Assembly: GCA_022601535.1 (NCBI GenBank)
Contig: JAJACK010000001.1
Coordinates: 5,993 to 69,992, forward strand
Source of the DNA: Chlamydiales bacterium
GTDB lineage: Bacteria; Chlamydiota; Chlamydiia; Chlamydiales; JAAKFR01
Direction: 5' to 3'
Length of the DNA: 64,000 nt
The notes under the pieces: generated by a model
Seen by the model: the letters and a program-made list of their open reading frames with translations, nothing else
Databases searched by the model: none
Told to the model about the DNA's origin: nothing
Translations under genes and position numbers: made by a program
Shown here: positions 26,753-27,371 of the stretch, one piece after another
How the letters are laid out: every line of letters begins with the position of its first letter
How positions within the stretch are numbered: the stretch's first letter is position 1

Positions 26753-26974
26753 ATGGACCTTAGTCATCTTTCTCTCGAAGCGCGGGTTATTCTCGGAAAA
26801 GCGGAGCTTTTGGCCCCTGACTATCACTCCTTACGAGTGGGAGACATCATCCAGCTCGACCAAAAAACGGCAGACCCCCTTCCCCTTGTTATTGGAGGGA
26901 AAACATATTTTACAACTACCGCTGGCCTAGATGGGACACACAAAGCGGTCAAACTCGAGACCCACCATGAGTGA
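26753..26974 (+). CDS. Stand-alone SpoA (FliN/SctQ C-terminal) domain protein
   Basis: 73 aa. 'EARVILGKAELLAPDYHSLRVGDIIQLDQKTADPLPLVIGGKTYFTTTAG' fits the FliN/YscQ SpoA pattern (v.v.lG...l.....L..GDvi.LD......v.l.v.g). Confidence 0.7.
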   Translation: MDLSHLSLEARVILGKAELLAPDYHSLRVGDIIQLDQKTADPLPLVIGGKTYFTTTAGLDGTHKAVKLETHHE

Positions 26975-27371
26975 TTTAACGCCAGAAGAGATCGATGGCA
27001 TCGTATCAGCGATCAACCAAGAACCCGCCTCAAAAGAAGAGCTCTCCCAAATTCCCCTTCAACCTCCCGGCCATTACGGCAAGGTCGCACTTTCCCCTAT
27101 TGTAGGGGAGCAACCCCGCCCCCTCGATAAGCTTACCGAAAGAGAGTTCTCCAGCCTCGGCCACCTTGTTGCTCATGTCGAAGTTCTTTTTGGGAAGACC
27201 AAGCTCCCGCTACGACAGCTCGCCTCTCTCAAAGAAGGAGACCTTCTACCTCTAGATGAATTATGCGATGATTTAGTTGATATCTATGTCAATGATCAGC
27301 ATATTGGTAGGGGTGAAATTGTGACGACAGACGGCCATTTTGGCATCAAACTCGTCACTCTTGAGAATTAG
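26967..27371 (+). CDS. FliN/FliY-like protein: N-terminal EIDAL-like peptide plus C-terminal SpoA domain
   Basis: ATG 26967 overlaps the upstream stop (ATGAGTGA). C-terminal 'HVEVLFGKTKLPLRQLASLKEGDLLPLDELCDDLVDIYVNDQHIGRGEIVTTDGHFGIKL' is a strong FliN match. N-terminal 'MSDLTPEEIDGIV' resembles the FliM/FliY 'LSQxEIDALL' peptide. Confidence 0.75.
   Translation: MSDLTPEEIDGIVSAINQEPASKEELSQIPLQPPGHYGKVALSPIVGEQPRPLDKLTEREFSSLGHLVAHVEVLFGKTKLPLRQLASLKEGDLLPLDELCDDLVDIYVNDQHIGRGEIVTTDGHFGIKLVTLEN

What the first reader, a model, noticed from the sequence alone, without database searches (positions are those of the whole stretch)
26753..27371. Orphan, translationally coupled pair of FliN/SpoA-domain proteins, one with a FliM/FliY-like 'EIDAL' N-terminal peptide
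Two small ORFs overlap by 8 nt (ATGAGTGA). The first (73 aa) is essentially a bare SpoA domain. The second (134 aa from ATG 26967) has a strong FliN-type SpoA domain at its C-terminus, preceded by a proline-rich, probably disordered linker.

The second ORF opens with 'MSDLTPEEIDGIVSAI'. This resembles the 'LSQxEIDALL' peptide by which FliM and FliY bind phospho-CheY.

SpoA domains normally function as hetero- or homodimers inside the flagellar C-ring (FliM/FliN/FliY) or the injectisome sorting platform (SctQ/SctQc). Here the pair sits alone between ileS and the tmRNA gene, with no other flagellar or T3SS gene within 64 kb.

Some chlamydiae are reported to encode chemosensory genes without a flagellum. 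A minimal FliY-like module could therefore be an unrecognised output or adaptor: linking CheY-like signalling to the T3SS sorting platform, or acting as an alternative pod component. That role is inference.
Basis: partly seen in the sequence, partly recalled or inferred. Interest (0 to 1): 0.68.

Follow-up and report, generated by a model that had tools for sequence, protein, structure and literature searches.

The report
Leftover flagellar FliM-tail/FliN gene pair
These two small overlapping genes are what remains of a flagellar motor operon in a non-motile, sponge-associated relative of Chlamydia: the tail domain of FliM plus a complete FliN, kept intact by selection, probably as the docking piece of a flagellum-derived secretion apparatus and not as a chemotaxis adaptor for the injectisome.

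Summary
Two ORFs overlap by 8 nt (26753-26974, 73 aa; 26967-27371, 134 aa). Both carry a SpoA/FliMN_C domain. The second opens with an EIDAL-like peptide.

The interpretation needs changing. ORF1 is the C-terminal SPOA domain of FliM and nothing else. ORF2 is a flagellar-type FliN, not an SctQ.

Related chlamydial contigs carry a full fliK-flgD-flgE-motA-motB-fliL-fliM-fliN cluster at the same place next to ileS. Another contig shows an intermediate: FliM without its N-peptide, plus FliN, between ileS and the tmRNA gene.

The truncated pair is intact in all 10 related Chlamydiales genomes found. One of them is a named Ca. Sororchlamydiaceae MAG. Synonymous sites are saturated and dN/dS is about 0.06-0.2.

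The EIDAL-like peptide is ancestral to chlamydial FliN and is as conserved as the SpoA domain.

Published gene tables for Sororchlamydiaceae list a flagellar-type export core (FlhA, FlhF, FliF, FliQ and FliR in all nine genomes, extra FliP and FliI copies in all nine, and second FlhB and FliH copies in some). They list no rod, hook, filament, FliG, full FliM or stator, and a published phylum-wide survey lists no chemosensory system for the family.

Best reading: a minimal FliM(SPOA)-FliN module that tethers FliH-FliI. That function is inferred, not shown.

It is a new variant of a known kind and of moderate interest.

The parts
26753..26974 (+). ORF1 (73 aa): a stand-alone FliM C-terminal SPOA domain. 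The CheY-binding N-peptide and the CheC-like middle domain of FliM are gone.
   Evidence: Pfam PF01052 E=6.9e-12 over aa 3-69. The best NCBIfam match is the last 70 positions (250-319 of 320) of the FliM model TIGR01397. The best BLASTP hits of the window copy and of 9 of the 10 orthologues are the C-terminal ~65 residues of chlamydial FliM proteins, 30-45% identity; L007's top hit is also a FliM tail, but FliN and ORF2 come second and third. tblastn finds no other FliM segment anywhere in the window. Purifying selection: dN/dS 0.15-0.19 for the closest pairs with estimable dS.
26967..27371 (+). ORF2 (134 aa): a flagellar-type FliN. It has an N-terminal EIDAL-like peptide, a linker with conserved motifs, and a C-terminal SPOA domain.
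   Evidence: Pfam PF01052 E=1e-18. FliN TIGR02480 E=2.5e-17, against chlamydial CdsQ model PRK05933 E=0.049. The PDB profile search gives T. maritima FliN at 2.4e-14 and Salmonella FliN at 8e-12, against YscQ-C at 2e-6. The top Foldseek hits are FliY, FliN and the FliM::FliN fusion. Orthologues occur in 10 genome loci at 51-64% identity.
26967..27020 (+). ORF2 aa 1-18, 'MSDLTPEEIDGIVSAINQ': EIDAL-like N-terminal peptide, predicted helix at aa 6-16.
   Evidence: Mean pairwise identity is 0.71 among 11 orthologues, the same as for the SpoA domain. The FliN of flagellated chlamydiae carries the same motif ('LTPEEVESLS', 'LSPEEVEAIS'). It is in register with the chlamydial FliM N-termini 'LSQDEIDALI' and 'LSQEEINKLV'. 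AF2 predicts a helix at 6-16 with pLDDT about 80.
27048..27080 (+). ORF2 aa 28-38, 'IPLQPPGHYGK' (consensus IPLxPPGSY): a conserved short motif specific to the relic clade. Its partner is unknown.
   Evidence: Mean pairwise identity is 0.80, while the flanking linker segments are at 0.30-0.37. The motif is absent from the FliN of flagellated chlamydiae.
27171..27359 (+). ORF2 aa 69-131: the SPOA (FliN) domain.
   Evidence: Pfam hit over aa 70-130. Alignment to T. maritima and Salmonella FliN.
26967..26974 (+). 8-nt overlap ATGAGTGA (ORF2 start codon, ORF1 stop codon). Probable translational coupling.
   Evidence: Read directly from the sequence. An overlap of 4-29 nt is present in all 10 orthologous loci. 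Coupling itself is inferred.
26702..26752 (.). 51-nt intergenic region between the divergent ileS and ORF1. It marks the site where the upstream flagellar genes were lost. The pair's promoter is presumed to lie here.
   Evidence: Coordinates. In L014 this position holds fliK-flgD-flgE-motA-motB-fliL and the first ~260 codons of fliM. The promoter is inferred; the scan found no match here.
27396..27808 (+). tmRNA gene directly downstream (24 nt after the ORF2 stop). It is a conserved neighbour and possibly co-transcribed. It is context, not part of the protein module.
   Evidence: ARAGORN. No terminator-like site lies between ORF2 and the tmRNA gene, and promoter-like hexamers at 27340-27389 overlap the ORF2 3' end. 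The same adjacency is seen in L002, L005, L006, L007, L009, L010 and L015.

Best explanation
The pair is a vertically inherited relic of the chlamydial flagellar switch genes fliM-fliN.

Origin. An ancestral deletion removed the hook, stator and fliL genes and about the first 260 codons of fliM. This left (i) a new small gene that encodes only the FliM C-terminal SPOA domain and (ii) an intact fliN.

Product (inferred from family knowledge). The two products most likely form the SPOA1-SPOA2 heterodimer. In flagella this module builds the base of the C-ring and binds the N-terminus of FliH, which tethers the FliI ATPase under the export gate.

Setting (from published gene tables for the family, not shown for this genome). 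The lineage has lost FliG, the stator, and the rod, hook and filament. It keeps a flagellar-type export core: FlhA, FlhF, FliF, FliQ and FliR in all nine genomes, extra copies of FliP and FliI in all nine, a second FlhB in four and a second FliH in three.

Proposed role. The module would serve as the cytoplasmic docking or sorting piece of a secretion-only, flagellum-derived type III apparatus, or of a hybrid with the injectisome. It would not act as a motor switch.

The N-terminal peptide. The EIDAL-like peptide of FliN is ancestral and still under selection. Its present partner is unknown.

What is shown: identity, homology, synteny, the series of reduction states, and purifying selection. 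What is inferred: heterodimer formation, FliH binding, and the link to the export apparatus.
For: Identity. ORF1 equals the FliM C-terminal domain only. ORF2 is flagellar FliN rather than SctQ or CdsQ.

Synteny.
- L014 has ileS 67% identical to the window's. It also shares PhoH/PIN, a 240-aa ORF and an SH3 gene downstream. It reads ileS(-) | fliK flgD flgE motA motB fliL fliM(333 aa) fliN(161 aa).
- L016 and L017 carry flbD-motA-motB-fliL-fliM-fliN followed by the same DEAD helicase (67% identity) and PhoH.
- L015 shows an intermediate: ileS | FliM of 271 aa without the N-peptide + FliN of 134 aa | tmRNA.

A single old event. ORF1 starts at the same alignment position in the window and all 10 relatives.

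Selection. Mean pS is 0.73-0.78, against pN of 0.37 (ORF1) and 0.23 (ORF2). dN/dS is 0.06-0.19 in the closest pairs, and up to 0.36 where estimable.

Mechanistic precedent. The FliM(SPOA)-FliN heterodimer is the crystallised module that binds FliH(1-18) more strongly than a FliN homodimer does (PMC4443714; PDB 4yxb/4yxc hit).

Family context. L004 is Chlamydiae bacterium O_S4.2_123, assigned to Ca. Sororchlamydiaceae. The published table for nine genomes of that family shows FlhA, FlhF, FliF, FliQ and FliR, second copies of FliP and FliI, and in some genomes second FlhB and FliH. It shows no FlgB-K, FliC/D/E, FliG, FliM (COG1868) or MotA/B. The window DNA occurs in sponge metagenomes, the source of that study's MAGs.
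Against: The flagellar export genes of this genome were not seen. The window holds none, and assignment of the window to Sororchlamydiaceae rests on relatives, not on a phylogeny.

No interaction was tested. The tools predict single chains only, and the monomer models are mediocre (pLDDT 44 and 70).

FliG is reported absent, so it is unclear how a FliM(SPOA)-FliN module would be anchored to the MS ring.

The FliN hydrophobic patch that binds FliH (E. coli V111-V114, numbering from memory) reads 'IVTT' here and 'VV(A/T/S)V' in relatives. In flagellated chlamydial FliN it reads 'VVVV' or 'VVVI'. The FliH interface may therefore have drifted.

A second FliH copy is listed in only 3 of the 9 family genomes.

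ORF2 scores below the FliN equivalog cut-off: 62.6 bits against 84.05.
Confidence: 0.6

Rival explanations
1. The pair is a minimal FliY-like output module. Its N-terminal peptide binds a phosphorylated CheY-like protein and couples chemosensory signalling to the injectisome sorting platform.
For: The peptide is in exact register with the EIDAL motif (L-S/T-x-x-E-I-D-x-hydrophobic-hydrophobic). It is as conserved as the SpoA domain. Some non-flagellated chlamydiae do have chemosensory systems of unknown output (PMC5604735).
Against: The peptide is inherited from the FliN of flagellated chlamydiae and is not a new acquisition. The published survey of chemosensory genes lists Criblamydiaceae, Parachlamydiaceae and a few other clades. 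It lists no genome of the CC-IV/Sororchlamydiaceae family that carries the pair. Conversely, none of the few organism-named hits among the 120 best matches to the FliN profile comes from a cultured che-positive genus such as Parachlamydia, Protochlamydia, Criblamydia or Estrella. The SpoA domains are flagellar-type, not SctQ-type.
Confidence: 0.08
2. The module has been recruited to the injectisome. The FliM(SPOA)-FliN heterodimer would act like SctQc, as an extra or alternative pod component that binds CdsL/CdsQ.
For: In Chlamydia pneumoniae the relic flagellar proteins FliI and FlhA bind the injectisome protein CdsL (PMC2830194). SPOA heterodimers of the two systems are structurally alike. 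Most family genomes list only one FliH/SctL-type gene.
Against: SPOA-APAR binding was found to be subtype-specific in Salmonella. The sequence is far closer to FliN than to SctQ or CdsQ. The family keeps a separate flagellar-type gate and ATPase with which the module could work.
Confidence: 0.17
3. The EIDAL-like peptide is retained for the FlhF/FlhG placement system rather than for CheY. The module would mark or license the site where the flagellum-derived export apparatus assembles.
For: FlhG binds FliM through its N-terminus in polar flagellates and binds the FliN homologue FliY in Bacillus (PMC12826062). That the binding site is the EIDAL motif itself is from memory of Schuhmacher 2015. 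FlhF is listed in all nine Sororchlamydiaceae genomes.
Against: FlhG (COG0455) is listed as absent from those nine genomes.
Confidence: 0.08
4. The pair is a functionless remnant on its way to loss, or it is kept only because the region drives transcription of the adjacent essential tmRNA gene.
For: The tmRNA gene starts 24 nt after ORF2. No terminator lies between them, and promoter-like hexamers sit inside the ORF2 end. The adjacency is conserved.
Against: Both ORFs are intact in the window and all 10 relatives. These relatives are separated by saturated synonymous divergence, with dN/dS well below 1. Conservation is at the protein level, and two short motifs stand out from variable linkers. 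A promoter requirement would not preserve reading frames.
Confidence: 0.05

Closest known systems
Flagellar FliM(SPOA)-FliN heterodimer, the 'common assembly module' (Salmonella; PDB 4YXB/4YXC, Notti et al. 2015, PMC4443714)
   Same: It has the same two domains in the same gene order. ORF1 corresponds to the FliM 245-334 fragment used for crystallisation, and ORF2 to FliN. Both hit these PDB chains.
   Different: Here the FliM SPOA domain is a natural stand-alone gene, not part of a 330-aa FliM. The lineage is reported to lack FliG, the stator and all axial parts. FliH binding is untested, and the hydrophobic patch is partly changed.
fliM-fliN of flagellated chlamydiae (marine SAGs of Collingro et al. 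2017, PMC5604735; loci L013, L014, L016 here)
   Same: They are orthologous by synteny with ileS, the DEAD helicase and PhoH. The FliN has the same N-terminal motif. FliM C-terminal identity is 30-45%.
   Different: Those genomes keep full-length FliM, which carries an EIDAL peptide of its own in L013 and L014 but not in L016, together with fliL, motAB and hook genes. Their FliN lacks the IPLxPPGSY motif and has a C-terminal extension.
Cryptic flagellar genes of Chlamydiaceae (FliI, FlhA, FliF; Stone et al. 2010, PMC2830194)
   Same: These are relic cytoplasmic and inner-membrane flagellar export components kept in a non-motile chlamydial lineage. Their role is unknown, and they interact with the injectisome protein CdsL.
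   Different: No FliM or FliN relic is described there. The clade studied here keeps a larger set and so represents a less reduced stage.
FliY (Bacillus/Thermotoga type)
   Same: It has an N-terminal EIDAL-type peptide and a C-terminal FliN (SPOA) domain.
   Different: ORF2 has no CheC-like phosphatase middle domain. At 134 aa it has no room for one and gives no PF04509 hit. EIDAL motifs on plain FliN are already reported as sporadic (PMC6946799).
SctQ/SctQc (SpaO, YscQ, chlamydial CdsQ) of the injectisome sorting platform
   Same: It has the SPOA fold, two SPOA units acting together, and a role in tethering the ATPase.
   Different: SctQc arises by internal translation initiation within one gene. 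Here there are two genes of flagellar descent, the sequence match to SctQ is much weaker, and there is no T3SS gene neighbourhood.

Membership tests
SpoA / FliMN_C domain family (Pfam PF01052) | Match to the domain model above the gathering score | tested here: met
   ORF1 scores 45.6 bits and ORF2 67.4 bits, against a cut-off of 23.8.
FliN (flagellar) | Match to the NCBIfam FliN equivalog-domain model TIGR02480 above its trusted cut-off | tested here: not met
   ORF2 scores 62.6 bits against a cut-off of 84.05. It is nonetheless the best-scoring family for ORF2.
FliN (flagellar) | Closer to flagellar FliN than to injectisome SctQ | tested here: met
   PDB profile search: FliN 2.4e-14 to 8e-12, against YscQ-C 2e-6 and SpaO 6e-6. 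CdsQ model PRK05933 scores E=0.049.
FliN (flagellar) | Gene lies directly downstream of fliM in a flagellar gene cluster (orthology by position) | tested here: met
   The same position next to ileS, the DEAD helicase and PhoH holds the full cluster in L014, L016 and L017.
FliN (flagellar) | Works in a rotating C-ring with FliG, full FliM and MotAB | not testable with these tools
   Only 64 kb of the genome is visible, and it holds none of these. Published tables list them as absent from the family.
FliM | N-terminal CheY-binding EIDAL peptide | tested here: not met
   ORF1 starts at the position equivalent to about residue 260 of chlamydial FliM.
FliM | CheC-like middle domain (Pfam PF02154) that binds FliG | tested here: not met
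   ORF1 gives no PF02154 hit. tblastn with six chlamydial FliM proteins finds only the C-terminal ~65 residues in the window.
FliM | C-terminal SPOA domain of FliM type | tested here: met
   TIGR01397 positions 250-319 of 320. The best BLASTP hits are FliM C-termini, not FliN.
FliY | N-terminal EIDAL-type peptide | tested here: inconclusive
   The sequence motif is present and conserved. Binding to CheY-P or FlhG was not tested.
FliY | CheC-like phosphatase middle domain | tested here: not met
   No CheC/CheX Pfam hit at E<=1. Only about 50 residues lie between the peptide and the SPOA domain.
SctQ/SctQc (injectisome sorting platform) | Best match to SctQ models, located among sct genes, short form made by internal initiation | tested here: not met
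   SctQ models score below FliN and below their own cut-offs. No sct gene lies in the 64 kb. The pair is two separate genes of flagellar descent.

The most novel reading that the evidence does not exclude
The most novel reading has three parts.

(1) Ca. Sororchlamydiaceae-like chlamydiae run a second, flagellum-derived type III secretion machine that has been stripped of motor and filament.

(2) Its whole 'C-ring' is reduced to a FliM(SPOA)-FliN heterodimer.

(3) The conserved EIDAL-like peptide and the clade-specific IPLxPPGSY motif of FliN have been re-used to plug a regulator into that machine. The regulator could be a REC-domain protein, a MinD/FlhG-like ATPase, or a chlamydia-specific partner.

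This would be a living intermediate between a flagellum and the cryptic FliI/FlhA/FliF set of pathogenic Chlamydia. It would also be a natural example of how a secretion-only T3SS can arise from a flagellum.
Probability: 0.15. Interest if true: 0.7.

Novelty: new variant of a known kind. Interest (0 to 1): 0.38.

Why it matters
Chlamydiaceae keep a few flagellar genes whose role has been a puzzle for more than 20 years. This pair, together with the series of states seen here, shows that the sister lineage kept more of the cytoplasmic machinery. The series runs from the full cluster, through FliM without its N-peptide plus FliN, to FliM(SPOA) plus FliN.

What the sister lineage kept is exactly the module known to tether the export ATPase. 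That offers a concrete handle on what the relic flagellar export apparatus of chlamydiae does. The handle is two small soluble proteins that are easy to express.

The finding also tempers published statements that these genomes are 'motile' because they hold flagellar genes. At this locus all motor and hook genes are gone.

Finally, the pair is a natural minimal version of the SPOA1-SPOA2 assembly module. It carries two conserved linear motifs whose partners could be fished out.

Tried and rejected
- A word-indexed homologue search with ORF1 alone found only itself. Its orthologues had to be recovered by tblastn in the loci found through ORF2.
- The AF2 monomer of ORF2 built on 9 sequences was poor, with pLDDT 44. 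With 41 sequences it reached 70, and Foldseek TM-scores stayed low (0.26-0.28). This is expected because SPOA domains fold as intertwined dimers. Only the ranking of hits was used.
- No heterodimer or complex model could be made, because the tool predicts single chains and accepts only native sequences.
- No RNA-seq run holds the locus, so expression is unknown.
- I searched the window and L001-L012 for remains of fliK, flgD, flgE, motA, motB, fliL, flbD or the N-terminal and middle parts of FliM. None was found.
- I checked the genes inserted between ileS and ORF1 in some relatives. They are unrelated: an Exo_endo_phos protein, T6SS sheath VipA/VipB, a cupin, and a quinol oxidase.
- PF28396, listed in the precomputed annotation, turned out to be SepQ_C. 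It is a weak overlapping SPOA-type hit, not a new N-terminal domain.
- Literature searches for a described chlamydial FliN/CheY link found nothing relevant.
- The supplements of the sponge paper hold no chemotaxis table.
- The idea that ORF2 starts at ATG 26931 was rejected on homologue N-termini.
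Full report
**1. The observation**

ORF1 runs 26753-26974 (73 aa). ORF2 runs from ATG 26967 to 27371 (134 aa). 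The two overlap in ATGAGTGA.

Pfam's SpoA model (PF01052, FliMN_C) hits both ORFs far above its gathering score. ORF1 scores E=6.9e-12 and is covered nearly end to end. ORF2 scores E=1e-18 over aa 70-130.

An upstream ATG at 26931 could extend ORF2. However, all homologues begin at the 'MSEF/MSDL' methionine.

ileS lies divergently upstream (23609-26701, minus strand). A tmRNA gene follows 24 nt after ORF2 (27396-27808).

Pfam scans covered 50 of the window's 54 non-overlapping ORFs of at least 90 aa. Neither they nor the pair's own scan found a flagellar, T3SS or chemotaxis domain outside the pair. The surrounding genes are lepB, a CT021-family gene, prfA, prmC, ffh, rpsP, trmD, rplS, rnhB, gmk and yicC. 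From memory, this is the gene order around CT019-CT031 of Chlamydia trachomatis.

**2. What the two proteins are**

NCBIfam places ORF1 on the last 70 positions (250-319 of 320) of the FliM model. It places ORF2 best on FliN (62.6 bits). The SctQ models rank lower, and the chlamydial CdsQ model is only marginal at E=0.049.

A profile of the ORF2 family finds T. maritima FliN (2.4e-14), the Salmonella FliM::FliN fusion 4YXB, and Salmonella FliN (8e-12). These come well ahead of YscQ-C (2e-6) and SpaO.

A profile of the ORF1 family also hits only flagellar SPOA chains.

The AF2 monomer of ORF2 is mediocre, as expected for a domain that folds as an intertwined dimer. Its best Foldseek matches are again FliY, FliN and FliM::FliN.

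**3. Relatives and context: the decisive evidence**

*Close relatives.* ORF2 has nine homologues in the large protein collection, including the window's own copy; the other eight are 53-64% identical. A scan of one genome per species then found 10 loci, all in Chlamydiales MAGs.
- Every locus has an ORF1 orthologue directly upstream (34-53% identity), overlapping ORF2 by 4-29 nt.
- Eight loci have ileS upstream, and seven have the tmRNA gene downstream.

*The wider family.* An exhaustive profile search, followed by a second indexed search, showed that ORF2 belongs to a family of 125-170-aa FliN proteins. All hits above E of about 1e-27 that carry an organism name are chlamydial. These proteins share the N-terminal motif M-x-D-L-(S/T)-P-x-E-(I/V)-(E/D)-A-L.

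*Gene neighbourhoods*.
- L014 reads ileS(-) | fliK flgD flgE motA motB fliL fliM(333 aa) fliN(161 aa). Its ileS is 67% identical to the window's. It shares PhoH/PIN, a 240-aa ORF and an SH3 gene downstream, and it has a tmRNA gene nearby.
- L016 and L017 carry flbD-motA-motB-fliL-fliM-fliN, followed by the same DEAD-box helicase (67% identical) and PhoH as in the window.
- L013 carries motA-motB-fliL-fliM-fliN close to lepB.
- L015 is an intermediate. Its FliM has 271 aa, lacks the N-terminal peptide, and keeps the middle and C-terminal domains. A 134-aa FliN follows, and the two sit between ileS and the tmRNA gene.

*ORF1 against chlamydial FliM.* The window's ORF1 and all its orthologues align best to the last ~65 residues of these FliM proteins, at 30-45% identity (for L007 the FliM hit leads only narrowly over FliN and ORF2). 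The shared tail is 'GL.G..KAV.I'.

*No other remains.* tblastn finds no trace of any other flagellar gene, or of the rest of fliM, in the window or in the relatives.

*Conclusion.* The pair is what is left of the ancestral flagellar cluster at its original place. ORF1 begins at the same alignment position in the window and all 10 relatives. The truncation is therefore most simply one old event.

**4. Is it still functional?**

Synonymous sites among the 11 orthologous pairs are saturated (mean pS 0.73-0.78). Non-synonymous differences are much lower: pN is 0.37 for ORF1 and 0.23 for ORF2. Where dS can be estimated, dN/dS is 0.06-0.19 in the closest pairs and at most 0.36.

Conservation within ORF2 is uneven:

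| ORF2 segment | Mean pairwise identity |
|---|---|
| N-terminal peptide, aa 1-18 | 0.71 |
| Clade-specific motif IPLxPPGSY, aa 28-38 | 0.80 |
| SPOA domain, aa 69-131 | 0.71 |
| Linker segments aa 19-27 and 57-68 | 0.30-0.37 |

This pattern indicates a working protein with two short binding motifs. It does not look like decaying DNA.

**5. The EIDAL-like peptide**

'L-T-P-E-E-I-D-G-I-V' is in register with the FliM N-termini of flagellated chlamydiae, 'L-S-Q-D-E-I-D-A-L-I' and 'L-S-Q-E-E-I-N-K-L-V'. A loose pattern for the motif occurs only once in the six-frame translation of the window.

But the peptide is not a new feature of an orphan module.
- The FliN proteins of flagellated chlamydiae already have it.
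- A FliN from another phylum (Armatimonadota) has a canonical 'LSQEDIDRLL'.
- The literature notes full or degenerate EIDAL motifs sporadically on FliN and FliY (PMC6946799).

The motif family is known to bind CheY-P. From memory of Schuhmacher 2015, it is also where the MinD-like ATPase FlhG binds; the review read here says that FlhG binds FliM through its N-terminus and binds FliY (PMC12826062).

**6. Which organism, and what else does it have?**

The window DNA occurs in sponge metagenomes released in 2022.

One relative, L004, is 'Chlamydiae bacterium O_S4.2_123'. Dharamshi et al. 2022 assign this sponge MAG to Ca. Sororchlamydiaceae, the sister family of Chlamydiaceae, formerly called CC-IV (PMC9666466).

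Their gene table for nine genomes of that family shows the following.
- Present: FlhA, FlhF, FliF, FliQ and FliR; a second FliP and a second FliI; a second FlhB in four genomes and a second FliH in three; one or two COG1886 (FliN-type) genes.
- Absent: FlgB-K, FliC/D/E/S, FliG, FliM (COG1868), MotA and MotB.

The authors read these genes as a sign of motility. The locus studied here shows that the motor and hook genes are actually deleted.

A phylum-wide table of chemosensory genes lists Criblamydiaceae, Parachlamydiaceae and a few other clades. It lists none of the CC-IV genomes (PMC8242063).

I could not inspect the rest of this genome. Its membership in the family, and its possession of the export core, are inferences from relatives.

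**7. Most likely mechanism**

[quoted passage not shown] This heterodimer is the conserved 'assembly module' that binds the N-terminus of FliH and so hangs the FliI ATPase under the export gate. FliH binds the heterodimer better than it binds a FliN homodimer (PMC4443714).

The window encodes exactly those two domains and nothing else of the C-ring. The FliG-binding middle domain of FliM is gone. That fits the reported absence of FliG.

I therefore propose that ORF1 and ORF2 form this heterodimer. It would serve as the docking or sorting piece of a flagellum-derived, secretion-only export apparatus, possibly a hybrid with the injectisome. Such a hybrid has been suggested for the FliI/FlhA/FliF relics of Chlamydia pneumoniae, which bind CdsL (PMC2830194).

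- Shown: identity, descent, conservation.
- Inferred: the heterodimer, the FliH link, the secretion role.
- Open: how the module is anchored without FliG; what the two linear motifs bind; and whether the changed hydrophobic patch still takes FliH. That patch reads 'IVTT' or 'VV(A/T/S)V' here, against 'VVVV' or 'VVVI' in flagellated chlamydial FliN.

**8. Rivals**

This is unlikely given the ancestry of the peptide and the lack of che genes in the family.
- *Recruitment to the injectisome as an SctQc-like piece.* This remains possible.
- *The peptide serves FlhF/FlhG-type placement.* This is possible, but FlhG is reported absent.
- *A dead remnant, or a mere promoter carrier for the abutting tmRNA gene.* This is contradicted by frame and residue conservation.

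**9. Novelty and verdict**

The gene family is known. NCBI already names one orthologue 'FliM/FliN family flagellar motor switch protein'. Flagellar homologues in CC-IV are published.

Three things appear to be undescribed:
- FliM reduced to a stand-alone SPOA gene and paired with FliN.
- Its position as the last remnant of the motor cluster, with intermediates in other lineages.
- The two conserved linear motifs.

This is a new variant of a known kind. It is of moderate interest for the evolution of chlamydial type III systems, and it is easy to test.

Noticed in passing
window 27340-27808 (+); also L002, L005, L006, L007, L009, L010, L015: The tmRNA gene starts 24 nt after the ORF2 stop codon, with no terminator-like site between them. 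Sigma-70-like hexamers (27340-27368, 27361-27389) lie in or at the end of ORF2. The same tight spacing (4-65 nt) recurs in seven related loci. ssrA is therefore either co-transcribed with the pair or driven by a promoter embedded in fliN.
   Followed up: partly
window 27048-27080 (ORF2 aa 28-38): The motif 'IPLxPPGSY' is the most conserved stretch of ORF2 among the 11 orthologues (0.80 pairwise identity). It is absent from the FliN of flagellated chlamydiae. No known partner or function.
   Followed up: partly
L002 6970-9068 (-): Type VI secretion sheath genes (VipB/TssC-like, 514 aa, and VipA/TssB-like, 183 aa) lie just upstream of the FliM'/FliN pair in a Chlamydiales MAG.
   Followed up: no
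L018 6896-8239 and L019 5145-6578: Here a near full-length fliM (299-329 aa) plus fliN stand alone between radA and a large glutamate dehydrogenase gene, with no other flagellar gene on the contig. Isolated fliM-fliN pairs therefore occur at more than one genomic position in chlamydiae.
   Followed up: no
L015 5895-9991: ileS is split into several called ORFs on this contig; these may be frameshifts from long-read errors. The adjacent FliM (271 aa) lacks the N-terminal EIDAL peptide but keeps the middle domain.
   Followed up: partly
window 13898-14326 (-): Ribosomal protein S16 carries a C-terminal tail of about 70 aa that weakly hits the chlamydial histone-like HC2 family (E=6e-5, below the cut-off).
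   Followed up: no
window 7374-8507 (+) and 61043-62179 (+): Eukaryote-like proteins: an F-box plus TPR protein and a leucine-rich-repeat protein. Both are candidate host-interaction effectors.
   Followed up: no
window 54213-59792 (+): A 1859-aa UvrA of double length, with duplicated UvrA interaction and ABC modules.
   Followed up: no
window 20782-22215 (-): Three consecutive ORFs (141, 179 and 160 aa) between lepB and arsB have no Pfam hit. The same three are called in the Logan contig L011.
   Followed up: no
window 1428-3272 (-): Two tandem paralogues of the chlamydia-specific DUF818 (CHLPS) family.
   Followed up: no
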